Positions 13 through 45,169 of a stretch of DNA of 64,000 nt are shown here, piece after piece. Source of the DNA: Nanobdellota archaeon (lineage in GTDB: Archaea > Nanobdellota > Nanobdellia > Pacearchaeales > GW2011-AR1); the NCBI GenBank assembly GCA_038046005.1, contig JBBSXB010000005.1, forward strand, positions 1-64,000, given 5' to 3'. Each line of letters opens with the position of its first letter. Positions within the stretch are counted from its first letter, which is position 1. A program made the position numbers and the translations under genes. The notes under the pieces were generated by a model. The model made no database searches and was not told where the DNA came from. It saw nothing but the letters and a program-made list of their open reading frames with translations.

Positions 13-951
13 ATGAAATCCAAAGATATAATTCAGCAGAAGTATAAAAATGTAATCTGTCCTAAATGTAATTCTAATCAGATTAAAAAAGATGGTAAAA
101 GAAAAACACAGAACAGAGGGAAGATACAGAGGTATAGATGTAACGAATGTAACTTCAGATTTGTTATTGATGATGGTTTTTATAGAATGAGGAATAACGA
201 GAACAAAATTACTGCCGGAATTGACTTATACTACAAAGGCGTTTCATTAAGAAAAGTGCAAGAACATTTCCAAGCTTTTTATCCTCACAATTCAAGCCAT
301 ATGTCAATTTACAGATGGATTGTAAAATATGCTGAAATGGTAGGAAACTTAGTTGATAATATTCCAATAAAATGTGGGAAAGAAATGCAAAGTGATGAAA
401 TGGAATATTACAGAAGAAAAAGTAAATATCAAAAAGGTAAAGAACAGAACTGGTTTGTGGATACTTTTGATGTTGAAACTAAATTTATGGTTACTGGTGA
501 GTATATGAAAAGCAGAACTAATGATAACTTAATCAAAGTTATGAAAAGAGCAAAATTCAAAACAGGAGAACAAGTTGAAATTGTAACAACAGACGGATTA
601 AGAGGTTATCCGAGAGTGTTAAGAAAAACTTTTAGCTTACAATCTCCTTATCATGCTTCTTCAAGAACCAAGAGCAAGATAGTACATAATGTTGTAATAG
701 CAGATGAAAGAGGATTTAATTATCCAATAGAAAGATTACATAATACTATAAGAGAAAGGACAAAAACCATGAGAGGTTTTCATGGTTGCATAGAGTCTGC
801 TCGTGCAATAATGAAGGGATTAGAGATAAATTATAACTTCAACAGAAAGCATATGTCTTTAGGAAAAATGACCCCAGCAGAAGTTGCTATACCCCAATTA
901 GAATTGGGAGTTAATAAGTGGTTGGATCTGATTAAGATGTCAAAGTTATGA
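13..951 (+). mobile_element. IS6/IS240-like DDE transposase with N-terminal Zn ribbon
   Basis: CPKC...CNEC Zn ribbon, HTH-like region (SLRKVQ...SIYRW), DDE residues in QSDEM / TTDG / NYPIERLH, C-terminal TPAE motif. Confidence 0.8.
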
Positions 952-1581
952 TTCTCTATCCCTAATATGTAATAAATTATATATATTTTTGATTGATTTA
1001 ACTTTAGCCTTTTTTATTGGCTTTCCAATTAAGACTGCTTTATATCCCTTATTTAATGCAGGAATTATATCGACTTCTAAATTATTACCTACAATAAGAA
1101 TTTGTCCTCTTTTCAGTCTATTCTGTTTTCTTATGTGTTCATAAACAAATAACTTAGATGTTTTCGGAAGAAAATCTATTGAATAATATGTTCTTTTAAT
1201 TAACTTGTGGATTCCTAATGTTTTTTGTAGAGCCTTTGAGTATTTCTTTGAAGAAAATGTAACTATAAATTTTTCTCTTTTAAGTTCCTTAATGGTGGAG
1301 ATAAGTTTTTTGTCTTTAGAAAGATATTTCTGAGGTTTTATAGTATCAAAAACATTTTTATGATAATCTTTTATAGATAAACCTAAAGATAGAAAACCTT
1401 CTAACGCATTAGGATATTTTTTTGGAAGTTTCCTATAGAGTTTTTCTACTTCTTTTTTATTCAATGAAAGTCTCTTCATTATCCATTTTTTTGTTTTCTT
1501 TCTTAAAGCATTTGTGAGTACACTTTCCTCTGGATAAAAAGTGCCGTCTTGATCAAATATAAAACATTTAATTTTGTTCAT
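946..1581 (-). CDS. HAD-superfamily hydrolase (nucleotidase-like)
   Basis: Motif I FDQDGT; degenerate motif IV GNNLEVDI. Confidence 0.8.
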   Translation of the reverse strand: MNKIKCFIFDQDGTFYPEESVLTNALRKKTKKWIMKRLSLNKKEVEKLYRKLPKKYPNALEGFLSLGLSIKDYHKNVFDTIKPQKYLSKDKKLISTIKELKREKFIVTFSSKKYSKALQKTLGIHKLIKRTYYSIDFLPKTSKLFVYEHIRKQNRLKRGQILIVGNNLEVDIIPALNKGYKAVLIGKPIKKAKVKSIKNIYNLLHIRDRES

Positions 1582-2576
1582 GGTTCAAAAACTAGTTTTA
1601 TAACTCCAGATTCTTTTTTATTTTTTATCAAATTTAATCCTTCTTTAAATTTTTTTAAAGGAACTACATGAGTTATAATTTTTGAAAGTCTTGTTTTTAA
1701 TCTTTCCAACAAGTTTATTGCCATATCAAATTCATCTTTCCCATTAAAAAAACCGTAAGAATTTGAACCAATAATTTTCCCTTCTTTATAAAAAAAATCC
1801 CTTAAAGGAATTTTGCCAAGAAAATTCTTTTCAAATACCCCAAGAACAATTATTTTGCCCCTTGGTTTTATTAACCTTATAGATTGTTGTAATGTTTTAT
1901 CTTGTTTTCTTCCAACAACTTCAAAGATAATATCATAATATTTTTTTGATTTTTCAATATCTTCATTTTTTAGGGTATTAATCCCAAAATCTGAGGCTAA
2001 TTTTAAATTTCTGTTGTTTTTTCCAATAATCGACACTTCATTTTTAAATTCAAGACAAATAAGACCTGTAATTAATGCAAGAGACCCGTCTCCAATTACT
2101 AACACATTCTTTTTAGTGGGAGATTCTGAAAGATTGTATCCATGTAGTGCTACTGCGATACTATCTGTTAATATAGCTTCTTCAAATTTTATAATCTTAG
2201 GAATTTTTCTTAAATTCTTACTAGGAACAAAAACAAATTCTGAAAATCCTCCTTGATAATTTTTACCTATTGATTTAACTTTGGTAATATCATCACCCCA
2301 TTTATTTCTAATTAATGGATTTATGACTACTCTATCATTTTTTTTAAAATCTCCAACACTTTCCCCCACTTCATGAACTATTCCAGCAATTTCATGACCC
2401 CAGATATCTGTTTCTACCGAACTTAATGCTTTTTTATCAGAAAATATTTTTTGGATATCGCTTCCACAAAGACCTGTTGCCTTTACTTTTATTTTCACGA
2501 AACCTTTCTTTATCTTAGGTTCTTTAACTTCTTGGTAATCTATTCTGCCTCTTTTTGAAATAGTAATAGCTTTCAT
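1578..2576 (-). CDS. Zn-dependent medium-chain dehydrogenase (threonine/sorbitol dehydrogenase-like)
   Basis: GLCGSD, GHE and Rossmann IGDGSLA motifs; the structural-Zn Cys cluster is absent. Confidence 0.85.
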   Translation of the reverse strand: MKAITISKRGRIDYQEVKEPKIKKGFVKIKVKATGLCGSDIQKIFSDKKALSSVETDIWGHEIAGIVHEVGESVGDFKKNDRVVINPLIRNKWGDDITKVKSIGKNYQGGFSEFVFVPSKNLRKIPKIIKFEEAILTDSIAVALHGYNLSESPTKKNVLVIGDGSLALITGLICLEFKNEVSIIGKNNRNLKLASDFGINTLKNEDIEKSKKYYDIIFEVVGRKQDKTLQQSIRLIKPRGKIIVLGVFEKNFLGKIPLRDFFYKEGKIIGSNSYGFFNGKDEFDMAINLLERLKTRLSKIITHVVPLKKFKEGLNLIKNKKESGVIKLVFEP

Positions 2577-2577
2577 T

Positions 2578-3690
2578 TCACAAATACCTCTTTATTTTCT
2601 TCTCATCTCCATTTGTTTCTTTGATTACTTCTAGCAATTTTTTAAATGGAATCCCTTTTTTAATGACCTTTTTAGAAATCATATACCCTTCCTTAAGATT
2701 TTTTGCTTTTTTAGCTAAATAAAGAATTGTTCCAGCATTGATGCAAATTACATCTTCTCTAGCTTTTTCTCCTTTGCCCCTTAAAACATCTATGGATAGC
2801 TTGATATTCTCTTTTTTATTTTTTCCCTCAGAAATATCTTTAGGTTTATACATGGGCAATTTCAATTCAATTAATGGGTTAAATGTTTTGGTATATCCTA
2901 TCTTACCATTTTGTATTCCTTTTATTTTAGTTATTCCATAAACACCCATTTCATCAATGTAATGGATCTTATCATTAGTTGTAGAAGCCACCATTACATT
3001 GTTAATTCCAAATTTTTTTAAAACTTTTACAGAAAGGTCTATATTGGGAAGAGCTAACCCATATAAGAAGTTGTCATACTTGATTGGACTTGCTAATGCA
3101 GCCAGACCAAAACTTAAGGCATGTGGAACATAAAATCTTTTCGCATAAATTGAGTTAAATCTGGGTAAGAGGCTTTCTATTGTAAATACTCCAAATCTTG
3201 TTTTTGTTATTATTTTTTCCATTTTTTTAACTGAAAGATTAAAATTTACTCCAACCTCTCGCAGAAAGTCTGCAGAGCCAGTTAGAGAACTTGTAGAAAT
3301 AGAGGCCACTTTTGCTGTAAATGCACCAGCACTCGCAGCAGTTAAAAGTGCAGGTGTAGAAATATTCATGGTTTTTACTCCTTTTTTTCCACTACCTATT
3401 GCACCTACCAACATTTCCCCTTTGGGAATTTTTATTTTGTATCTTTTTTTAGGATTAAATTTATCCAATTTAAAAACAGATTTTAATAGTGTTACAATCT
3501 CGTCTGTTGTTGGTCCTCTTGCCATTATCCCAGTTAAGATTGCCCCAAGTTGGATATCTCTTATGGATTGTTTAGAATTAGATAAGACAGAATCAAAAGC
3601 ATTTTCTAGAAGCTTAAGATCTATTTTGGATTGAACATTGAGTCTATACAAAACTTCACTAACCGCATTGTTTTTATCTATTCTTTCCAT
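2578..3690 (-). CDS. Divergent anthranilate phosphoribosyltransferase (TrpD)-like protein
   Basis: N-terminal helical domain (IQLGAILTG), NIST, SSLTGSAD, DE and INAG motifs; GTGGD is replaced by GSGKK and KHGN by KVAS. Confidence 0.8.
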   Translation of the reverse strand: MERIDKNNAVSEVLYRLNVQSKIDLKLLENAFDSVLSNSKQSIRDIQLGAILTGIMARGPTTDEIVTLLKSVFKLDKFNPKKRYKIKIPKGEMLVGAIGSGKKGVKTMNISTPALLTAASAGAFTAKVASISTSSLTGSADFLREVGVNFNLSVKKMEKIITKTRFGVFTIESLLPRFNSIYAKRFYVPHALSFGLAALASPIKYDNFLYGLALPNIDLSVKVLKKFGINNVMVASTTNDKIHYIDEMGVYGITKIKGIQNGKIGYTKTFNPLIELKLPMYKPKDISEGKNKKENIKLSIDVLRGKGEKAREDVICINAGTILYLAKKAKNLKEGYMISKKVIKKGIPFKKLLEVIKETNGDEKKIKRYL

Positions 3691-4748
3691 TTTGAGCAGA
3701 TTTTTATTAGAATATTAGCATAATCCCTCTTTGCTTCTTTCCAGTCTGAGCCTCCCTTTAAACATAAGTGATATAATTTCTTAATCTCTTCTGGAGTGTA
3801 ATAACTTACAGAAGCCATCATTTGATAAACAACATTATTCTCTGGTTTATTATATTTTCCTTCACCATTAATTATTTTATCCCTTATTTCTTCTGGTTTC
3901 ATATTGACATTAATACTTGATTTTGGGAAACTTTTTGACATCTTTGGATAATTATAAAATCCCTTTATCATTGGTGAGTAAATCGCAGAAAGAGTCATAT
4001 TAAAATTATTAAATTGTTTACTCTTTTTCATTCTTCTTATTGTTTCTCTTCCAAATCTGATATATTGATGTTCATCTATACCAAGCATGACTAGGACATT
4101 TTTATATTTTTTAGCCATATGAAGATGGATGAAATCTGCAACCATCAGATTTAAAGATAATTTTCTTCGGTAACTCATTCCTTTATCCACTTTGCCTCTT
4201 TTATGGTAAAAAGAATGAAGATCTTCTTCAGCATCATCAAACATTTTATCATCCATGAAGTGCCCCGTAATATAAGCGGTTCGTAAAATATCTAATTTAT
4301 CATATTGTGCCCTGAGTATAGAATCTTTTCTCTTATTAAACCCAAGAGATAATATGAGTTTTTCATATTTTTTTGCTAATTCTAATGTTCTTTTCAAATC
4401 TATATTTTTACCATTATAAGCATCTAAATCTCCCAATACTATTTGAACAGGGACGCCTGCTTTTTGTAATGCTATTGATCTCAAAATTTGTGAAAGAGTC
4501 CCTATATGTGGTTCTCCTGATAGTCCAAATCCTGTACTTACAATTACTTTTCTACCTTTTCTTAAATCTTTAGCAAAGTTTTTTCCATCGTGATGGCACA
4601 ACCACATTCTCTGAAGATCATATTTCTTTAGCTTCCCTAACGAAAAATTAATTTTTTCAAATTCTAAAGGATTATAACCAAATTCCTTCATAAGAGAATT
4701 ATAATATTTTTTATCAAAAACTACTCTTATTTCCCTCTTTTTTGCCAT
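3678..4748 (-). CDS. Divergent archaeal-type tryptophanyl-tRNA synthetase-like protein
   Basis: HIGT (HIGH-like), LGIDE (GxDQ-like), KMSKS; N-terminal LMKEFG resembles archaeal TrpRS. Confidence 0.7.
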   Translation of the reverse strand: MAKKREIRVVFDKKYYNSLMKEFGYNPLEFEKINFSLGKLKKYDLQRMWLCHHDGKNFAKDLRKGRKVIVSTGFGLSGEPHIGTLSQILRSIALQKAGVPVQIVLGDLDAYNGKNIDLKRTLELAKKYEKLILSLGFNKRKDSILRAQYDKLDILRTAYITGHFMDDKMFDDAEEDLHSFYHKRGKVDKGMSYRRKLSLNLMVADFIHLHMAKKYKNVLVMLGIDEHQYIRFGRETIRRMKKSKQFNNFNMTLSAIYSPMIKGFYNYPKMSKSFPKSSINVNMKPEEIRDKIINGEGKYNKPENNVVYQMMASVSYYTPEEIKKLYHLCLKGGSDWKEAKRDYANILIKICSKWKE

Positions 4749-4750
4749 TT

Positions 4751-5764
4751 TTACCCATAAGCGTTTTTATAAAGATTTAACAATTCTTTATCGTCTCTAA
4801 ATCTTTTTAATAAAAGATTTAATTCTTTAGCTACCGCATTCTTTAAATCCAACGGATGTAGTTTTTTGGATTTGAAGTCTTTTTCAATTTCTTCATAACT
4901 TCTATACTCAATATCCCCTCCAAACTTCTCAGGTCTTTCAACTGTGAAACTTCTTTTTGCATCTTCTTTCAGTATCATAATTAAATATTTTAAAAGAGAC
5001 ATTATTCCGTTATTAGGATCTCCTTCTATACAATCAGCCCCGTTTATCTTTTTCTTGAGATCATTTTCATTATCGAGTAAATCAATTTTTGTTGCCTCGA
5101 TACTAGAACTCATTTTTTCACCGACCAACCCCCTAATCATTGGAGACATTAATTCTATTCTTGGTTTATATCCAATCTTTGGAAGATATTCTCTGGAATA
5201 AACCATTATCTTTCTTTGGTCTAATCCGGCATATTGAATATCTACTTTAAGATATTCTTCATCTAATGCTTGCATTATAGGATAGACAAGATTTCCTAAA
5301 AGAGGATTATCTGTCATTTTAACTACTTCAGATGCTGCTTTATTGCAATTTCTAATGGTAGAAACCATACCTAATTTCAATACATCTTCGAAATATTTTC
5401 CATTTAATTGTAGATCGCTTCCCTTAACAAATTCCAGTTTTTTTATGTCTACTCCAATTGTTTTTAAGATAAGAACTATTGCTCTTTTATAATACTCTGT
5501 CCTTTTCTCCAATAATTCCCATGGAACTCCATCTAAAGCAGCATGTAAATCTGCTAATAGAATTTTAACTTTTAATCCGGCTTTTAAAAAATCAGCTATC
5601 TTTAACATAGGGAAAAAATATGCTATTGATATGCTCCCTGTCGGCATAGTCCCCCAATAAACAGAGATTTCTTTTTTCTTCTTTAACAATTCTTCTATGT
5701 CCTCTTTTGTGATTACCTCTTGCAAATTCCTCATTATTAAGCTGATTCTTTCTTTTAATTCCAT
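4751..5764 (-). CDS. tyrS: Tyrosyl-tRNA synthetase, archaeal/eukaryote type
   Basis: YWGT.PTG, KIADFLKAG, ADLHA, YPIMQALDEEYL, GLDQRKI, KMSSS, LHPLDLK; the HIGH motif reads SIAY. Confidence 0.88.
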   Translation of the reverse strand: MELKERISLIMRNLQEVITKEDIEELLKKKKEISVYWGTMPTGSISIAYFFPMLKIADFLKAGLKVKILLADLHAALDGVPWELLEKRTEYYKRAIVLILKTIGVDIKKLEFVKGSDLQLNGKYFEDVLKLGMVSTIRNCNKAASEVVKMTDNPLLGNLVYPIMQALDEEYLKVDIQYAGLDQRKIMVYSREYLPKIGYKPRIELMSPMIRGLVGEKMSSSIEATKIDLLDNENDLKKKINGADCIEGDPNNGIMSLLKYLIMILKEDAKRSFTVERPEKFGGDIEYRSYEEIEKDFKSKKLHPLDLKNAVAKELNLLLKRFRDDKELLNLYKNAYG

Positions 5765-5810
5765 CTTAATTTATTTAGATAAAACTTATTTATAAAGCTG
5801 TTTATTAGAC

Positions 5811-7022
5811 CTACTCTTTTTCATATTTTAGTTTTCTAAAATATCTTTTTCCAATTTGAACAACTTGGCCATCTTGAGGAGAAACCACATAGTTCATATC
5901 ATTGATAGTCTCGCCATCAAGTCTCACCCCACCTTGCTCTATAAGTCTTCTAGCCTCACTATTAGAATTTATCCTTCCCATTTGTCTAAGAACTTTCACA
6001 ATTGACAACTCTTCCTCACTTGTTGAATATTTTATAACTTGTTCTTCTAATTTCTCTGGAACATTCTTTCTTCTATGCACATAGTTGAATCTTTCTTCAG
6101 CAGATAGTGCAAGATTTTGCTCATGATATCTAGAAACAATTTCCCTTGCTAATCTTTGTTTGTATTCCATAGGATTCACACTTCCAGAAGAAATGGCTTC
6201 TCTAATCTTTTGAAATTCTTCTAAAGAAGTTTCAGATAGTAACTCATAATATTTTAACATCAGATCATCAGAAATAGACATTATCTTTCCATACATATCA
6301 TTCGGGTCATCGTTTACACCTATAGCATTTCCAAAACTTTTACTCATCTTCTTCACACCATCTACTCCCTCAAGTAAAGGAAGCGTTATAATTATTTCTG
6401 GTTCTTGCCCATATGCTTTTTGGATCTCTCTGCTTGCCATAAAATTAAATAATTGGTCTGTTCCTCCGATTTCTACATCACTTTTAAGGTGTACAGAGTC
6501 ATAGCCAACGAGAAGAGGATACAACAATTCGGTAACAGAAAGAGGTCTATTTTGTTTTATTCTCTCTCCAAAATCTCTTCTTTGCAAAAGCTGTTGAACT
6601 GTATATTTTGAACCTAGTTTAATTACATCTGTTCCAGAAAATTCCTCTAACCACTGGCTATTATATACCAAAGAAGTTTTATTAGAATCCAAAACTTTGA
6701 AGACTTGTTTTTGATAGGTTTCCATATTATCCTCTATTTCTTCTCGAGTTAATGTAGGTCTTGTTTCATTTCTTCCACTGGGATCACCTATCATTGCAGT
6801 ATAGTCCCCGATTATTAATTGTACATTATGTCCTAAATCCTGAAATTGTTTTAATTTTTGTAAAGGTACAGTATGGCCTAGATGAATATCTGGAGCTGTG
6901 GGATCCACTCCAAATTTAACATTAAGAGGCCTATTTTGTTTTAGTTTTCTAACTAATTCTTCTTCTGTGAGGATATCTACTGTTCCTCTTCTGAATTCAT
7001 TTAATTGGTCTTCAAGAGTCAT
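5811..7022 (-). CDS. tyrS: Tyrosyl-tRNA synthetase, bacterial type
   Basis: GVDPTAPDIHLGH, IGDPSGR, GGTDQLFN, KMSKS and a C-terminal S4 domain (SEARRLIEQGGV...GKR). Confidence 0.95.
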   Translation of the reverse strand: MTLEDQLNEFRRGTVDILTEEELVRKLKQNRPLNVKFGVDPTAPDIHLGHTVPLQKLKQFQDLGHNVQLIIGDYTAMIGDPSGRNETRPTLTREEIEDNMETYQKQVFKVLDSNKTSLVYNSQWLEEFSGTDVIKLGSKYTVQQLLQRRDFGERIKQNRPLSVTELLYPLLVGYDSVHLKSDVEIGGTDQLFNFMASREIQKAYGQEPEIIITLPLLEGVDGVKKMSKSFGNAIGVNDDPNDMYGKIMSISDDLMLKYYELLSETSLEEFQKIREAISSGSVNPMEYKQRLAREIVSRYHEQNLALSAEERFNYVHRRKNVPEKLEEQVIKYSTSEEELSIVKVLRQMGRINSNSEARRLIEQGGVRLDGETINDMNYVVSPQDGQVVQIGKRYFRKLKYEKE

Positions 7023-7243
7023 TGTGATGTTAATTATTTTTTTCTTAATATATTTTGAGGTAAGAACGGACTTTTAAAACTTTCTATTTTTCATCACTAT
7101 AAAGTTATTATAGTCTTTAGACTAGGAGATTATAACTCCCGTTAACGTTACAATGTACTGTTTGAGGAGAAATGAAAATTGGCTAGCTGTCGCCCAAGAT
7201 TGATAATTATTTTAATGTGAAAATTTTAGGTTGTGTTAAAAAA

Positions 7244-7591
7244 TTAAAGGTCCAAGCTTGTTTTGATTGCCATCTCAACTTTATTCATTAAGTCTATGTT
7301 CAGAAAGCTAATTTTTTTTATTAGTCTTGTTCTATCAATAGTTCTTAATTGGTTTAAGAGTATTGTGGAATCTTTTTCTAACTTTGAATCTTTTTTTTGG
7401 ACAAACACATTTGTAAGATATTCTTTATCAAAAACCTTTGAGGTGAGAGCAGCAATTATTGTTACGGGTGAGTTTTTATTAGAAATATCATTTTGAATTA
7501 TTAAGACTGGTCGAATTCCTCCTTGCTCACTTCCTATTACTGGCTCTAGATTTGCCAGAAAAATGTCTCCTCTTTTTATTTCCATTCCCAA
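7244..7591 (-). CDS. mazF: MazF/PemK family toxin
   Basis: RGDIFLANLEPVIGSEQGGIRPVLIIQND and QLRTIDRTRL. Confidence 0.92.
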   Translation of the reverse strand: MGMEIKRGDIFLANLEPVIGSEQGGIRPVLIIQNDISNKNSPVTIIAALTSKVFDKEYLTNVFVQKKDSKLEKDSTILLNQLRTIDRTRLIKKISFLNIDLMNKVEMAIKTSLDL

Positions 7592-7809
7592 TCTCTAAAG
7601 TCTTCTATTGCTTCAAATTCTTTAGTTATTTTTAAATTTTCTTCTGCCATAGCTTTGCATCCTTCAATCATTAGCTCAATATGCTTTCTTTTTTGTTCTT
7701 CGACAGTTCTCATTAGAGATAGTATAACTTCTTCATATGTTTCTTTTCCAACTTTCATTCTGTCCAATGCTTTTTTTACATTCTCATTAAGTTGTATTGT
7801 TGTTACCAT
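7576..7809 (-). CDS. Putative antitoxin (RHH-like) for MazF
   Basis: Small ORF overlapping the toxin start; TTIQL...ETYEEVI RHH-like N-terminus and acidic tail. Confidence 0.75.
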   Translation of the reverse strand: MVTTIQLNENVKKALDRMKVGKETYEEVILSLMRTVEEQKRKHIELMIEGCKAMAEENLKITKEFEAIEDFRDWEWK

Positions 7810-8492: not shown

Positions 8493-10229
8493 TTATTTAA
8501 TCAGAGTAGTTGCAGAACTGCAAACTTGTATCCAGTGCCCATTGACTTTTTCCCATGTGCAGCCAGATTGAAGTGTTCCAAATATCAGGTTTGCTGTTGC
8601 TGCATTGTTTGCTTCATCTTTTTCCAATTTTATGTTTGCAGGATCAGCTGAAACAACAATAGCATATGCTGAATTTGTGGAGCTTGTCATACTTACGGAA
8701 ATATTAACATTACTTCCTGCAGGAATATTTACTGTTTGGTTTTTCAAAATTACCCTTGTGGTTTCTTCTTTATCATAGTAAATTTTTACAGAAACATTAT
8801 TCAGGTTTGTTTGTCCGTCGTTGTATATTGTTGCATTTATATTCACTTGCTGTCCTGGCTGAGGATTTGGATTTGATATTGTCATCGTCGTTCTTAAATC
8901 TCCATAGAATGTTATTGGAACCCATTGTCTTACACCCCAACCTGGCCCGTTAGGACCGTCATATCTGAATATTGGTTTTGTTTGATTATCAAAACTTGTA
9001 TGGCTAAGTGTTCTTCCAAATAAATCGATGACTGCCATGTCATCTGAGATTTGCCAGTTTGTTTGCCCATCTGATTTGTCTAAAGTTTCAAGATTATTAT
9101 TAGTCAAATAATAAAATCTGCTCCAATTTAATCCATAATCATCTCTTAGCATTGTAAACATCCAGGCAGTTATGTCGTAGCCAGGACTTTGCTGTATTTC
9201 ATAATCATTTCCAGTTGTATCTTTATAGTCATTATTCACATATCCTTGCCAATTCCATCCTGCCTTTCCTTGGTATAAATAAGTATCACCTGTTTCTTGA
9301 TTTATGTCTCCATAATTTGTTAAGATGTTATACATATTGTATTCGGAAAACCCTTCTGTCAACCATAATCTATTATAAATCGGTAAAGGGTTTATAGAGT
9401 GCATAGATTCATGTAACCCCCCTGAAAAATATATCCAATTATCCTCCAATTCTCCTGTATTTCCGTAATATTGTTGCCCATTAAAGTAGTAAGGTAATCG
9501 ACAGGATTGTTGGTATAATGGATTAGACAATAAAACATGAGCTTCTCCAGGCATTGCATAACCTCCCCAACATCCAGCAGTATCAATATACAAATTCAAT
9601 TTATGGCCGTAGAATTTTTCAGAACTCCATCCTGTTGTCTGTTCCATTAAGACAAGTCTTGGCTGTAATTTGTTTAGGAAATCAGTTATGTTTGCTGTGT
9701 TGTTATTATAATAGTTTTGCTCAACAAAAGCATTGAATCTTGTGTATGGGATTTGCTGCCAGGTCACAGGCGAGGCTGTTGCTGAAGCTCCAGCGTCATA
9801 GTAATCATTTTGAGAAGGATTTACATTGCCATCAATAATTATTGGAGTAGTCTTTCCGTCTGGGAAAGTTATTGTGTCCGTATCATAGTTTACTGTGTAG
9901 ATTACTCTGCCATTATCATCTTTTACTATTCTCACTGATGACCTTAAAGCTGTTGGTGTTGGCTCTGGTTTGATTATTCTTGTTGAAGTTGACCTTGTTG
10001 TTGATTTTGAAGTTGAAGAAGCTGTTTTTTTTGCCAAGCTTGATTCTAAAACTGGCTTGCTAAATATTTCCAACTGGTCGTATCCCGATAAAACATTTCC
10101 TATAGTTTCTCCAACATAAACCATTTTGTTTGAGCTACTTTTGCTTCCTTGGATTATGACTATGAACGTTGTATTTACAATAAGCAGTACGCTGACCAGA
10201 ACAGCCAAAAATAATACATTTTTATCCAT
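8493..10229 (-). CDS. Membrane-anchored gluzincin metallopeptidase-like protein with CARDB-like domain
   Basis: N-terminal TM segment, S/T-rich linker, HESMH followed by WLTEGFSEY, C-terminal Ig-like domain ending DPAN..LEKDEANN. Confidence 0.7.
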   Translation of the reverse strand: MDKNVLFLAVLVSVLLIVNTTFIVIIQGSKSSSNKMVYVGETIGNVLSGYDQLEIFSKPVLESSLAKKTASSTSKSTTRSTSTRIIKPEPTPTALRSSVRIVKDDNGRVIYTVNYDTDTITFPDGKTTPIIIDGNVNPSQNDYYDAGASATASPVTWQQIPYTRFNAFVEQNYYNNNTANITDFLNKLQPRLVLMEQTTGWSSEKFYGHKLNLYIDTAGCWGGYAMPGEAHVLLSNPLYQQSCRLPYYFNGQQYYGNTGELEDNWIYFSGGLHESMHSINPLPIYNRLWLTEGFSEYNMYNILTNYGDINQETGDTYLYQGKAGWNWQGYVNNDYKDTTGNDYEIQQSPGYDITAWMFTMLRDDYGLNWSRFYYLTNNNLETLDKSDGQTNWQISDDMAVIDLFGRTLSHTSFDNQTKPIFRYDGPNGPGWGVRQWVPITFYGDLRTTMTISNPNPQPGQQVNINATIYNDGQTNLNNVSVKIYYDKEETTRVILKNQTVNIPAGSNVNISVSMTSSTNSAYAIVVSADPANIKLEKDEANNAATANLIFGTLQSGCTWEKVNGHWIQVCSSATTLIK

Positions 10230-44954: not shown

Positions 44955-45004
44955 GGTTTTAAATCAGTAACTTTTAAAAGGGGATTTCTGCATTATATTT
45001 TCAT

Positions 45005-45117
45005 GCTCGCATGGTCTAGCGGTTATGACTCATCCCTGTCGTGACATCTTCTTTATGAAAAAGAAAGGGGAAAATCACAGAACGGATGCGATCCGGGTTC
45101 GACTCCCGGTGCGGGCG
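45005..45117 (+). tRNA. tRNA-Asp(GTC) with a 41-nt intron at 37/38 (45042-45082)
   Basis: Acceptor GCTCGCA/TGCGGGC, anticodon stem CATCC/GGATG, T arm CCGGG-TTCGACT-CCCGG; BHB with CTGT/ACAG helix and 3-nt bulges CGT and AAC; TTTTAAAA box at 44972-44979; CCA not encoded. Confidence 0.93.
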
Positions 45118-45169
45118 TAATACATATTAGACCAATTTGGTGAGACTCTTTTCCTAACGGATATATTGT

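What the first reader, a model, noticed from the sequence alone, without database searches (positions are those of the whole stretch)
946..7022. Operon of three class Ic aaRS genes plus TrpD-like, dehydrogenase and HAD enzymes
Six co-directional genes, five of them abutting or overlapping: bacterial TyrRS, archaeal TyrRS, divergent TrpRS, divergent TrpD, Zn-MDR and HAD. No other trp genes are present in the window. The enzymes suggest a route: PRPP transfer to an amine or base, dephosphorylation, redox tailoring, then aminoacylation or self-resistance by the aaRS paralogs. Known precedent: extra aaRS copies give immunity in the indolmycin, albomycin and agrocin 84 systems. A nucleoside/amino-acid-analog pathway in a probably reduced archaeon would be unexpected (inference).
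Basis: partly seen in the sequence, partly recalled or inferred. Interest (0 to 1): 0.78.

Follow-up and report, generated by a model that had tools for sequence, protein, structure and literature searches.

The report
Mobile tRNA-synthetase cassette, probable antimetabolite pathway
A tight six-gene operon in a tiny archaeal genome is one copy of a cassette that moves between archaea and bacteria, and it most likely makes a small tyrosine-linked ribose compound while carrying spare, altered tyrosyl-tRNA synthetases as protection.

Summary
Six co-directional, abutting genes lie on the minus strand at 946-7022: bacterial TyrRS, a second TyrRS, a divergent TrpRS-like protein (WRSl), a TrpD-like protein, a Zn-MDR dehydrogenase and a HAD phosphatase. 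The 875-kb archaeal genome has its own canonical TyrRS and TrpRS on other contigs, so all three cluster synthetases are extra.

The cluster is a conserved mobile cassette. Among 74 distinct WRSl loci:
- 48 of 53 assessable loci have the TrpD-like gene nearby.
- 43 of 48 have the MDR.
- 24 of 26 have a bacterial-type TyrRS.

It carries DPANN, Asgard, CPR and Bacteroidota MAG labels. On a Bacillus thuringiensis plasmid it reads WRSl-TrpDl-ADH-HAD-MFS transporter-tyrS between IS elements. It was found in only 3 of 401 genomes sampled from the host phylum.

All 46 distinct cassette-linked bacterial-type TyrRSs carry rare substitutions at near-invariant active-site positions.

Best reading (about 0.5): a small biosynthetic cassette for a TyrRS-directed aminoacyl-ribosyl antimetabolite, with target-copy immunity. 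The product, the WRSl substrate and drug insensitivity are all inferred.

One puzzle remains: the bacterial-type TyrRS is under purifying selection in archaeal hosts. I found no description of the cassette in the papers searched.

The parts
5811..7022 (-). Bacterial TyrZ/Thermus-type TyrRS (P0003). HLGH, GGTDQ, KMSKS and the C-terminal S4 domain are intact, but Val replaces the near-invariant Gln of the YPxxQxYD substrate-binding motif (class A).
   Evidence: best solved relatives 6bqy (4e-115), 6byq and 1h3e all have Gln. Gln in 143 of 150 nearest 50%-cluster representatives..
4751..5764 (-). Eukaryote-like (DPANN-type) TyrRS (P0002). It reads S-I-A-Y where human TyrRS reads H-V-A-Y, and KMSSS is kept. 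It is extra to the genome's native TyrRS on contig C1.
   Evidence: 5thh 8e-100; all matched sequences among the 120 listed (117; the pattern failed on 3) carry Ser; sole TyrRS hit in nine relatives, while same-genus G001 has only the other type.
3678..4748 (-). WRSl (P0001), a divergent TrpRS-like protein. It has the full archaeal/eukaryotic TrpRS fold, a PHxGT motif in place of HIGH, KMSKS kept, and GIDEH where this genome's canonical TrpRS has GIDQD. Proposed to be an ATP-dependent amino-acid ligase.
   Evidence: best PDB sequence match is TrpRS 3a04 at only 1e-9; family invariants; pLDDT 87, TM 0.71 to 3a04; 278 relatives.
2578..3690 (-). TrpD-like glycosyl-transferase-family-3 protein (P0004). 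It has the TrpD fold and keeps the Asp-Glu pair, but GTGGD is GSGKK and KHGN is KVAS. Proposed to be a PRPP-dependent ribosyl-phosphate transferase with a non-anthranilate acceptor.
   Evidence: alignment to 9ucw/1vqu. GSGKKGxK..NIS, K127, SS..GS and D246-E247 are invariant in 17 family members; pLDDT 90, TM 0.75-0.85 to TrpD structures.
1578..2576 (-). Zn-dependent medium-chain dehydrogenase (P0005). Its nearest solved relative is galactitol-1-phosphate 5-dehydrogenase.
   Evidence: 4a2c 3e-24.
946..1581 (-). HAD-family phosphatase (P0006) with the DxDGT motif. Its nearest families are nucleotide 5'-phosphatases.
   Evidence: (TIGR01993 67.6 bits, below cut-off). XMP phosphatase 7ef6 6e-10.
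13..951 (+). IS-type DDE transposase, convergent with the cassette and overlapping its 3' end by 6 nt. The same transposase sits at the same end of the cassette in other loci.
   Evidence: L020 91%, L025 87-93%, L022 56%.
7023..7243 (-). A 221-nt AT-rich spacer upstream of the first gene, presumed to hold the operon promoter. Not tested.
   Evidence: sequence read. No Rfam family in the window.

Best explanation
The six genes are one copy of a horizontally mobile cassette whose conserved core is WRSl + TrpD-like + Zn-MDR (+HAD), always travelling with a TyrRS. The most likely function is biosynthesis of a small TyrRS-directed antimetabolite, with built-in target-copy immunity.

Inferred route:
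1. The TrpD-like enzyme couples PRPP to a non-anthranilate nucleophile, giving a nucleotide-like riboside 5'-phosphate.
2. The MDR oxidises or reduces the phosphorylated sugar chain.
3. The HAD removes the 5'-phosphate.
4. WRSl, which keeps the adenylate-forming motifs, activates an aromatic amino acid (probably Tyr or a close analogue) and ligates it to that ribose-derived acceptor, giving an aminoacyl-adenylate mimic.
5. The linked TyrRS copies, with altered active sites, keep Tyr-tRNA synthesis going in the producer. The bacterial type would serve bacterial hosts, and an added archaeal/eukaryotic type would serve archaeal hosts.

Shown: gene identities, extra-copy status, conserved synteny, mobility, family-specific active-site changes and purifying selection.

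Inferred: every chemical step, the target and the immunity.
For: (1) All three cluster synthetases are extra. The genome has a canonical archaeal TyrRS on C1 (NF006330 413.5 bits) and a canonical TrpRS on C8 (NF008925 408.3 bits).

(2) Synteny. I examined 92 loci, which gave 74 distinct WRSl sequences after dropping 18 exact duplicates. The TrpD-like gene lies within +-6 genes in 48 of 53 loci that have >=1.2 kb downstream, and is the next gene in 41 of 53. The MDR is present in 43 of 48. A bacterial-type TyrRS is present in 24 of 26 loci with enough flank; the exceptions are L070 and L079.

(3) B. thuringiensis plasmid pBMB172 carries WRSl-TrpDl-ADH-HAD-MFS transporter-tyrS between IS6, recombinase and IS4 genes. 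That is the classic layout of biosynthesis + exporter + target copy.

(4) All 46 distinct cassette-linked bacterial-type TyrRSs have rare residues at near-invariant positions. Class A (n=20) has Gln->Val. Class B (n=9) has Pro->Ala plus Gln->Met. Class C (n=17) has DPT->DV/IT, GG->I/VG and KMSKS->KQSKS (KQSKI in L098). Among the 150 nearest representatives the usual residues are Gln 143, Met 149, Gly 147 and Pro 142.

(5) At least two TyrRS lineages are linked to the cassette. Class C does not group with A+B: the smallest clade holding all three contains 120 of 171 sequences. In archaeal hosts three different archaeal/eukaryotic TyrRS types occur. This suggests that TyrRS activity itself is what is needed.

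(6) The accessory genes vary between loci: HIT, HD, B12-radical SAM, GTP cyclohydrolase III, phosphodiesterase, P-loop and APH kinases, and glycosyltransferases. That is the pattern of tailoring enzymes around a fixed core.

(7) The nearest solved relatives fit nucleotide-like and sugar-phosphate substrates: galactitol-1-phosphate dehydrogenase and XMP phosphatase.

(8) The distribution is patchy and the flanks are mobile. WRSl occurs in 3 of 401 phylum genomes and in 0 of 40 relatives. Flanks carry transposases, resolvases and integrases.

(9) All six genes are under purifying selection, with median dN/dS of 0.07-0.21.
Against: No product, substrate or inhibition has been shown.

- An exporter is adjacent only in the Bacillus plasmid. 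No transporter family recurred among 124 flanking ORFs.
- The bacterial-type TyrRS is kept under purifying selection in archaeal cassettes (dN/dS 0.11). By textbook identity rules (recalled) it should not charge archaeal tRNA-Tyr. One locus appears to be the contig of a WRSl hit labelled Heimdallarchaeaceae (L047; inferred from matching contig length 10053). There the bacterial type is the only cassette TyrRS.
- The Ser-for-His change in the eukaryote-like TyrRS is not cassette-specific, so it carries no visible resistance mark.
- WRSl keeps the whole TrpRS architecture including the C-terminal helical domain, so a tRNA substrate is not excluded.
- No aminotransferase is present to make a stable amide-linked mimic.
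- MAG taxon labels may be wrong for mobile DNA.
Confidence: 0.5

Rival explanations
1. The cassette makes a small molecule, but the TyrRS is a biosynthetic enzyme rather than an immunity gene. The altered TyrRS would supply Tyr-AMP or Tyr-tRNA, or itself aminoacylate the ribose-derived acceptor. WRSl would add or activate a second aromatic residue. The target of the product would then be unknown.
For: The bacterial-type TyrRS is conserved and under purifying selection in archaeal hosts, where it should not serve translation (identity rules recalled). In classes A and B, the Gln that by recall binds the substrate's alpha-amino group is replaced, which could mean an altered substrate. TyrRS is nearly as tightly linked as the core enzymes (24 of 26).
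Against: The TyrRS keeps every catalytic motif and the tRNA-binding S4 domain. At least two unrelated TyrRS lineages, and three archaeal/eukaryotic types, fill the slot. That is unusual for a specialised biosynthetic enzyme. Two well-flanked loci lack any TyrRS (L070, L079).
Confidence: 0.17
2. The cassette is a resistance or stress island rather than a producer. It would supply back-up class Ic synthetases (TyrRS, and WRSl as an odd TrpRS) plus enzymes that degrade or modify an external nucleoside-type synthetase inhibitor or a toxic amino-acid analogue. The TrpD-like protein would act as a glycosidic-bond phosphorylase. HAD, HIT and HD would act as hydrolases and the MDR as a modifier.
For: HIT and HD hydrolases recur (HIT in 7 of 26). 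The TrpD fold family also holds nucleoside phosphorylases, which give weak NCBIfam hits. There is an MFS pump on the plasmid. Spare synthetases are known to cope with analogues such as D-Tyr (TyrZ; PMC9437257, passages read).
Against: A four-enzyme core with family-specific, invariant active sites and tight translational coupling is more than known resistance determinants need. WRSl is the same protein family in bacterial and archaeal hosts (52-90% identity). By recalled identity rules it therefore cannot be a working TrpRS for both.
Confidence: 0.15
3. The cassette acts on tRNA or on the code. It would either build a ribosyl/aminoacyl hypermodification on tRNA-Tyr, read by a matching TyrRS, or make and charge a non-canonical aromatic amino acid (a pyrrolysine-like cassette).
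For: WRSl and the TyrRSs keep full tRNA-synthetase architecture. The cassette moves as a unit between domains, as pyl genes do (recalled). No tRNA-Tyr gene could be found in this genome.
Against: No tRNA gene lies in the window. None lies inside the cassette in 10 related loci scanned with ARAGORN, nor in 8 loci (one of them also in the ARAGORN set) scanned with Rfam, where tRNAs appear only in the flanks. No known tRNA-modifying family was detected. There is no sign of stop-codon reassignment in the ORFs.
Confidence: 0.08
4. An anti-virus defence system that makes an aminoacyl- or ribosyl-nucleotide signal or a chain terminator.
For: The distribution is patchy and mobile, and a MazF toxin gene lies next door. 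The accessory HIT protein resembles the ThsC HIT family model in PADLOC (1e-15). Radical SAM and HD partners occur.
Against: None of the six proteins has a meaningful PADLOC match; the only hit is P0006 to Cas12f at E 0.003, taken as chance. There is no sensor or effector domain. No copy was found in viral contigs or phage records. The invariable link to TyrRS is unexplained by this reading.
Confidence: 0.06
5. Ordinary housekeeping genes that happen to be neighbours.
For: Two of the six genes pass the curated TyrRS cut-offs.
Against: Canonical copies exist elsewhere. The same gene set recurs in unrelated genomic contexts and on a plasmid. It was not found in 40 relatives.
Confidence: 0.02

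Closest known systems
Synthetase-inhibitor gene clusters with a resistant target copy (indolmycin/TrpRS, mupirocin/IleRS, albomycin/SerRS; PMC9437257, passages read; agrocin 84/LeuRS recalled)
   Same: A second, divergent copy of one aminoacyl-tRNA synthetase sits inside a small-molecule enzyme cluster, while a housekeeping copy lies elsewhere. One version is on a plasmid with an exporter. The extra copy has an altered active site.
   Different: The target would be TyrRS, for which I found no described producer cluster (0 papers; none of the 10 listed SB-219383 titles is on its biosynthesis). The enzymes are a TrpRS-like ligase and a TrpD-like transferase. The hosts include CPR and DPANN genomes. 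Archaeal versions carry two TyrRS of different domain types. Nothing has been shown biochemically.
Synthetase paralogues used as amino-acid ligases (MshC, YadB/GluQRS, recalled; AS-A and aa:carrier-protein ligases, PMC9437257 passages; alanyl-tRNA-synthetase-like enzymes of ascamycin, PMC12945691, abstract seen)
   Same: WRSl keeps the adenylate-forming motifs, is far from its parent family, and is fixed next to enzymes that could make an acceptor.
   Different: Several of those paralogues (AS-A, aa:carrier-protein ligases and, by recall, YadB) have lost the tRNA-binding domain, whereas WRSl keeps the whole TrpRS fold. No class Ic example with a TrpD-like partner was found.
TrpRS-A / TrpRS-A-like / ORF1 loci of CPR and DPANN (Mukai et al. 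2017, PMC5370408; passages read)
   Same: Extra archaeal-type TrpRS homologues occur in CPR bacteria and DPANN archaea alongside the canonical TrpRS, and they are laterally transferred. The same paper documents TyrRS transfer among DPANN, CPR, eukaryotes and giant viruses, which explains the eukaryote-like P0002.
   Different: Those loci carry a tRNA-Trp(A73) gene and an unknown ORF1. The word 'phosphoribosyl' does not occur in the main text held, and only 12 instances were reported. Here there is no tRNA, the partners are TrpD-like/MDR/HAD/TyrRS, and hundreds of relatives exist. I could not compare sequences, so overlap of WRSl with their 'TrpRS-A-like' group is not excluded.
Anthranilate phosphoribosyltransferase TrpD
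   Same: Same fold (TM 0.75-0.85). The Asp-Glu pair and the NIST and SS..GSAD segments are kept.
   Different: GTGGD is GSGKK and KHGN is KVAS (of KVAS only the Lys is invariant, while GSGKKG is invariant across the 17 family members). It scores below the TIGR01245 cut-off. No other trp genes were seen in the window (no dedicated search run).
TyrZ, the second TyrRS of Bacillus (PMC9437257 passages)
   Same: An extra TyrRS of the same structural type as P0003, used under stress.
   Different: TyrZ is chromosomal and is described as more selective for L-Tyr. The cassette copies carry rare substitutions and are fixed to the WRSl/TrpD-like genes.

Membership tests
Synthetase-inhibitor biosynthetic cluster with target-copy self-resistance | An extra copy of the target synthetase lies in the cluster, with a housekeeping copy elsewhere in the genome | tested here: met
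   canonical TyrRS on C1; plasmid tyrS; 24 of 26 loci.
Synthetase-inhibitor biosynthetic cluster with target-copy self-resistance | The extra copy is insensitive to the product | not testable with these tools
   Indirect only: rare active-site substitutions in 46 of 46 cassette-linked bacterial-type TyrRSs.
Synthetase-inhibitor biosynthetic cluster with target-copy self-resistance | The cluster enzymes make a compound that inhibits that synthetase | not testable with these tools
   The enzyme families fit a ribose-derived aminoacyl compound, but no chemistry is shown.
Synthetase-inhibitor biosynthetic cluster with target-copy self-resistance | A dedicated exporter | tested here: inconclusive
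   An MFS transporter is present only in the Bacillus plasmid. No transporter family is among the 25 commonest listed for 124 flanking ORFs.
Tryptophan--tRNA ligase (for P0001) | Score above the curated NCBIfam equivalog cut-offs | tested here: not met
   NF008925 92.9 vs 451; TIGR00233 77.2 vs 176.75.
Tryptophan--tRNA ligase (for P0001) | Class I signature motifs HIGH, GxDQ and KMSKS | tested here: inconclusive
   PHxGT (last His lost) and KMSKS kept. GIDEH stands where this genome's own TrpRS has GIDQD.
Tryptophan--tRNA ligase (for P0001) | Full TrpRS fold including the C-terminal helical domain | tested here: met
   (TM 0.71 to 3a04, 0.69 to 2azx and 3jxe).
Tryptophan--tRNA ligase (for P0001) | Charges tRNA-Trp | not testable with these tools
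   The same family occurs in bacterial and archaeal hosts, which argues against a host tRNA-Trp substrate under recalled identity rules.
Anthranilate phosphoribosyltransferase TrpD (for P0004) | Score above the TIGR01245 cut-off | tested here: not met
   149.8 vs 199.05.
Anthranilate phosphoribosyltransferase TrpD (for P0004) | GTGGD loop and KHGN segment as in solved TrpDs | tested here: not met
   GSGKK and KVAS. GSGKKG is invariant in 17 of 17 family members.
Anthranilate phosphoribosyltransferase TrpD (for P0004) | TrpD fold and Asp-Glu metal pair | tested here: met
   D246-E247 are invariant.
Bacterial tyrosine--tRNA ligase (for P0003) | Curated cut-off, HIGH, KMSKS and the S4-like C-terminal domain | tested here: met
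   (381.2 vs 113.8).
Bacterial tyrosine--tRNA ligase (for P0003) | Conserved Gln of the YPxxQxYD motif | tested here: not met
   Val at position 172. Gln occurs in 143 of 150 nearest representatives, and Val in all 20 class A cassette copies.
Archaeal/eukaryotic tyrosine--tRNA ligase (for P0002) | Curated cut-off and KMSSS; HIGH-equivalent | tested here: met
   (295.6 vs 220). S-I-A-Y instead of H-V-A-Y is shared by all matched sequences among the 120 listed (117; pattern failed on 3).
TrpRS-A/ORF1 system (Mukai et al. 2017) | A tRNA-Trp(A73) gene in the operon | tested here: not met
   No tRNA in the window by Rfam. None inside the cassette in 10 loci or 8 loci.
TrpRS-A/ORF1 system (Mukai et al. 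2017) | An adjacent ORF1 of no known family | not tested
   No ORF1 sequence was at hand. All conserved neighbours here have Pfam families.
Known anti-phage defence systems (PADLOC) | A match of a core protein to a defence model | tested here: not met
   no meaningful match for the six proteins (only P0006 to Cas12f at E 0.003, taken as chance). The accessory HIT protein of L028 matches ThsC.

The most novel reading that the evidence does not exclude
A minimal four-enzyme pathway makes a natural tyrosyl-adenylate mimic. Its enzymes are a TrpRS-derived ligase, a TrpD-derived ribosyl-phosphate transferase, a dehydrogenase and a phosphatase. The pathway travels as a broad-host-range cassette between Bacteria and Archaea, including CPR and DPANN episymbionts, and brings its own drug-insensitive TyrRS of bacterial and, in archaea, eukaryote-like type. 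That would give ultra-small symbionts a chemical weapon, or a means of host control, aimed at translation.
Probability: 0.3. Interest if true: 0.85.

Novelty: new variant of a known kind. Interest (0 to 1): 0.72.

Why it matters
If the reading holds, this would be, as far as my searches show, the first described gene cluster for a natural TyrRS-directed compound. It would add a new use of a class Ic synthetase scaffold and a new acceptor specificity in the TrpD family. It would also be a rare case of specialised metabolism in CPR and DPANN organisms, which have about 1-Mb genomes and are thought to carry few such pathways.

The cassette is small (4-6 genes) and has a version on a plasmid record from a Bacillus thuringiensis strain, so it is directly testable. 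The altered TyrRS classes are ready-made natural variants at positions that enzymologists treat as invariant. A bacterial TyrRS kept in archaea also bears on how strict the domain barrier in tRNA-Tyr identity really is.

Tried and rejected
- **Complex prediction.** WRSl with the TrpD-like protein (collected) gave 'no answer' (score 0.00). It is not used as evidence either way.
- **Public sequencing runs**: no RNA holder was listed, so expression was not examined and read laying was not used.
- **Rfam.** No family reached threshold in the window. No T-box or riboswitch was found in eight related loci, only flank tRNAs.
- **tRNA-Tyr in the genome.** ARAGORN with and without introns and Rfam tRNA at E<=0.01 and E<=10 found none. 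The odd 141-nt tRNA at C6:15743-15883 reads by eye as an intron-bearing Arg(GCG), not Tyr. I therefore could not test whether a bacterial-style tRNA-Tyr exists.
- **Viral origin.** There was no relative in viral contigs or phage records.
- **Plasmids.** Only one plasmid record holds WRSl or the TrpD-like protein.
- **The Ser-for-His change in P0002 as a resistance mark.** Rejected, because all matched sequences among the 120 listed (117 of 120; the pattern failed on 3) share it and the type is the sole TyrRS hit in nine relatives.
- **A single origin for the cassette TyrRSs.** Not supported by the FastTree tree. The tree is unrooted, has long branches, and excluded 26 of 197 sequences outside 330-520 aa.
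- **Protein Atlas**. The nearest clusters are commonest in Actinomycetota. This is a lead only, and I could not fetch the genomic context of the Streptomyces homologue P0214.
- **Literature.** Searches found no paper describing this gene set. Supplementary files were not opened, and subscription journals are not covered.
- **Pocket modelling of WRSl.** Not possible, because model coordinates are not exposed. Sequence alone did not decide between Tyr and Trp.

Full report
**What is there**

The window is the first 64 kb of contig C5 of an 875-kb, 15-contig genome rated 98% complete. The genome is archaeal: it has intron-bearing tRNAs, and the closest related loci come from MAGs labelled Woesearchaeota and Nanoarchaeota.

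Six ORFs lie head to tail on the minus strand between 946 and 7022. Their spacing is +46, +2, -13, +1 and -4 nt. By Pfam and NCBIfam they are:

| Coordinates | Id | Identity |
|---|---|---|
| 5811-7022 | P0003 | Bacterial TyrRS with S4 domain (TIGR00234 381 bits, cut-off 113.8) |
| 4751-5764 | P0002 | TyrRS of archaeal/eukaryotic type (NF006330 295.6, cut-off 220) |
| 3678-4748 | P0001, here WRSl | Class Ic synthetase nearest to TrpRS but far below every cut-off (92.9 vs 451) |
| 2578-3690 | P0004 | TrpD-like protein below cut-off (149.8 vs 199.05) |
| 1578-2576 | P0005 | Zn-MDR dehydrogenase |
| 946-1581 | P0006 | HAD phosphatase |

A DDE transposase (13-951, plus strand) abuts the 3' end. 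A MazF-like gene (7244-7591) lies upstream.

**The three synthetases are extra**

PF00579 finds five genes in the genome. The two outside the cluster are a canonical archaeal TyrRS on C1 (413.5 bits) and a canonical TrpRS on C8 (408.3 bits). The only other PF00591 gene is a 510-aa frame on C1.

**The cluster is a conserved, mobile cassette**

- WRSl has no close homologue in 40 relatives; only the canonical TrpRS matches, at about 28% identity.
- It occurs in 3 of 401 genomes sampled from the phylum, this one included.
- The 5.8-billion-protein search nevertheless returns 278 relatives, the best 120 at 52-90% identity. Source names include Woesearchaeota, Nanoarchaeia, Heimdallarchaeaceae, Thorarchaeota, Magasanikbacteria, Vogelbacteria and Bacillus pseudomycoides.
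- The TrpD-like family mirrors this and adds Clostridium beijerinckii and, at 32% identity, a Streptomyces protein.

I fetched 11 genome loci, 80 metagenome loci and one plasmid locus. I called ORFs and compared them with the window's proteins. After dropping 18 loci with an identical WRSl, 74 remained:

| Gene near WRSl | Loci with it | Loci assessable |
|---|---|---|
| TrpD-like, within six genes | 48 | 53 (>=1.2 kb downstream) |
| TrpD-like, immediately next | 41 | 53 |
| MDR | 43 | 48 |
| Bacterial-type TyrRS | 24 | 26 (enough flank on both sides) |
| HAD recognisable by BLAST | 13 | 26 |
| HIT protein | 7 | 26 |
| Second TyrRS of archaeal/eukaryotic type | 11 | 26 |

The two loci without a bacterial-type TyrRS are L070 and L079. 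The HAD count is a minimum, because Pfam found more divergent HADs. L033 is the window's own sequence and is not independent.

The flanks differ from locus to locus and include ribosomal protein, translation factor and restriction-modification genes. No family recurs among 124 flanking ORFs except further HADs and mobile-element genes. Transposases, a resolvase and integrases border the cassette in several loci. The window's own transposase recurs at the same end in L020 (91%) and L025 (87-93%).

No copy was found in viral contigs or phage records.

**The most telling version**

B. thuringiensis plasmid pBMB172 carries, between IS6, recombinase and IS4 genes: hypothetical (WRSl), hypothetical (TrpD-like), alcohol dehydrogenase, HAD, MFS transporter, tyrS.

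A longer version occurs in MAGs labelled Bacteroidota (L026) and Methanosarcinales (L028). It inserts GTP cyclohydrolase III, a B12-binding radical SAM enzyme, HIT, a second HAD and a type I phosphodiesterase between the TyrRS and WRSl. In L028 it is flanked by a resolvase and two integrases.

Other versions add:
- an HD hydrolase and an NHL-like protein;
- a P-loop kinase fused to the HAD;
- an APH-type kinase, a metallophosphoesterase or glycosyltransferases.

A fixed core with changing tailoring genes is the pattern of a small-molecule pathway family.

**The proteins**

*WRSl.* The model is confident (pLDDT 87). It is a full-length archaeal/eukaryotic TrpRS fold (TM 0.71 to 3a04), although sequence similarity to any solved TrpRS is only 1e-9. 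The family has its own invariant set: TGFGLSGxPHxGT, LGDLDAYNGK, a strongly conserved SYRRKLSLNLMxADF block, GIDEH where this genome's TrpRS has GIDQD, YPKMSKSF, and three invariant Cys. The adenylate-forming motifs are thus largely kept, while the nucleotide and substrate region has changed.

*TrpD-like protein.* It has the TrpD fold (pLDDT 90; TM 0.75-0.85). Where solved TrpDs read GTGGD and KHGN, it reads GSGKK and KVAS, and it keeps the Asp-Glu pair. GSGKKG, K127, the SS..GS segment and D246-E247 are invariant in 17 members, including the Clostridium and Streptomyces proteins. An acceptor other than anthranilate is the natural inference.

*MDR and HAD.* The MDR's nearest solved relative is galactitol-1-phosphate 5-dehydrogenase. 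The HAD's is an XMP phosphatase. Both fit a phosphorylated, nucleotide-like sugar substrate.

**The TyrRSs**

P0003 is a TyrZ/Thermus-type enzyme (6bqy 4e-115) with all motifs present. However, it has Val in the YPxxQxYD motif. By my recollection of the Bacillus stearothermophilus work, that Gln (Gln173) binds the substrate's alpha-amino group.

Among the 150 nearest 50%-cluster representatives, Gln is present in 143. Val is present in 5, four of which are P0003's closest relatives.

All 46 distinct bacterial-type TyrRSs lying within six genes of a WRSl fall into three classes:

| Class | n | Substitutions |
|---|---|---|
| A | 20 | Gln->Val |
| B | 9 | Pro->Ala plus Gln->Met |
| C (includes the Bacillus plasmid tyrS) | 17 | DPT->DV/IT, GG->I/VG, KMSKS->KQSKS (KQSKI in L098) |

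The background frequencies of the usual residues are 142-149 of 150. In a FastTree tree of 171 sequences, A is monophyletic (0.97), A+B are sisters (0.83) and C lies apart. No rooting puts A+B+C in a clade smaller than 120 of 171. At least two TyrRS lineages have therefore been tied to the cassette.

P0002 scores best against human cytoplasmic TyrRS (8e-100) and reads S-I-A-Y where the human enzyme reads H-V-A-Y. This is not a cassette mark. All matched sequences among the 120 listed (117 of 120; the pattern failed on 3) share the Ser, and this type is the only TyrRS hit in nine relatives. The same-genus genome G001 has only the other, canonical type. P0002 therefore came in with the cassette from another Woesearchaeote lineage.

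Other archaeal cassettes hold a different 374-aa TyrRS type or a third type instead. Transfer of such TyrRSs among DPANN, CPR, eukaryotes and giant viruses has been described (PMC5370408, passages read).

**Selection**

Among the window and seven close DPANN loci, median dN/dS values are:

| Gene | Median dN/dS |
|---|---|
| Eukaryote-like TyrRS | 0.07 |
| WRSl | 0.09 |
| TrpD-like | 0.09 |
| Bacterial TyrRS | 0.11 |
| HAD | 0.19 |
| MDR | 0.21 |

All six genes are in use.

**Interpretation**

Several features match clusters that make a synthetase inhibitor and protect the producer with a resistant copy of the target:
- an extra target-type synthetase fixed to a set of small-molecule enzymes;
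- a location on mobile DNA;
- one version with an exporter;
- an altered active site in every linked bacterial-type TyrRS.

Such clusters are known for indolmycin, mupirocin and albomycin (PMC9437257, passages read). I therefore favour, at about 0.5, a pathway with these steps:
1. PRPP-dependent ribosylation by the TrpD-like enzyme.
2. A redox step on the sugar phosphate by the MDR.
3. Dephosphorylation by the HAD.
4. ATP-dependent aminoacylation by WRSl, giving a tyrosyl-adenylate mimic.

The TyrRS copies would act as immunity. HIT hydrolases, frequent in the family, are known by my recollection to detoxify aminoacyl-nucleotide antibiotics, which would fit. Every chemical step is inference.

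**What does not fit**

- The bacterial-type TyrRS is conserved in archaeal hosts, where by textbook identity rules (recalled) it should not charge tRNA-Tyr.
- I could not find any tRNA-Tyr gene in this genome to examine.
- Exporters are absent outside the plasmid.
- WRSl keeps a complete tRNA-synthetase architecture.

These points keep several rivals alive: the TyrRS as a second biosynthetic ligase (0.17), a resistance or stress island (0.15), a tRNA-directed or code-related function (0.08), and a defence system (0.06). Taxon labels of MAG contigs carrying mobile DNA should be read with care.

**Comparison and novelty**

The nearest described systems are:
- the self-resistance clusters named above;
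- synthetase paralogues used as ligases;
- the TrpRS-A/ORF1 loci of CPR and DPANN, which differ in carrying tRNA-Trp and ORF1 and in having no TrpD-like partner.

Five literature searches found no description of this gene set, and none of a producer cluster aimed at TyrRS. Supplements were not seen and subscription journals are not covered.

I rate it a new variant of a known kind. The logic is familiar. The enzyme families, the target and the cross-domain host range, which includes CPR and DPANN, are not.

Noticed in passing
window 7244-7809 (minus strand): A MazF/PemK-like toxin gene (7244-7591, PF02452 1.8e-31). A 77-aa ORF (7576-7809) overlaps its start and could be the antitoxin. The pair lies directly upstream of the cassette and is co-directional with it.
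   Followed up: partly
window 13-951; L020:11795-12733; L025:12650-13589; L022:11811-12074: The same DDE transposase (56-93% identical) sits at the HAD end of the cassette in several otherwise different loci. This suggests IS-mediated movement. The contig starts inside this element, so the far side is unknown.
   Followed up: partly
L028:958-14421 and L026:2220-11778: Two MAGs, labelled Methanosarcinales and Bacteroidota, carry the same extended layout: TyrRS, GTP cyclohydrolase III, B12-radical SAM, HIT, HAD, phosphodiesterase and then the core. L028 has a resolvase and two integrases. Either the transfer is recent or mobile DNA was mis-binned.
   Followed up: partly
G000 whole genome: No tRNA-Tyr gene was found by ARAGORN or Rfam. 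There were 34 tRNA matches at E<=0.01, and several other isoacceptors are also missing. Long introns, split genes or assembly gaps may be the cause.
   Followed up: partly
G000:C6:15743-15883: A 141-nt tRNA gene with a 69-nt intron. ARAGORN calls it Phe(aaa), but by eye it reads better as Arg(GCG) with the intron after position 37.
   Followed up: partly
window 45004-45118: ARAGORN in intron mode reports a tRNA-Ser(aga) with a 41-nt intron here. Rfam finds no tRNA anywhere in the window at gathering score, so this is probably a false call.
   Followed up: no
P0001 residues C51, H52, C329, C351 (window 3678-4748): Three Cys and an adjacent His are invariant across the 16-member WRSl alignment. 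They lie in the N-terminal extension and the C-terminal helical domain and may form a metal site. Their proximity in the model could not be checked.
   Followed up: no
window 8493-10229 (minus strand): A 578-aa protein with a C-terminal CARDB domain and no NCBIfam match. It is probably a surface protein.
   Followed up: no
relatives G014, G017, G006, G011, G032, G013, G007, G024, G018: These related DPANN genomes show a eukaryote-like TyrRS (52-86% identical to P0002) as their only TyrRS hit. Others in the same family have the canonical archaeal type, so the housekeeping TyrRS has been replaced within one family.
   Followed up: partly
L056:4160-6052, L061, L066, L069: Some class C cassette TyrRS genes appear as 620-630-aa frames, about 220 aa longer than usual. 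These may be a fusion or an upstream start artefact.
   Followed up: no
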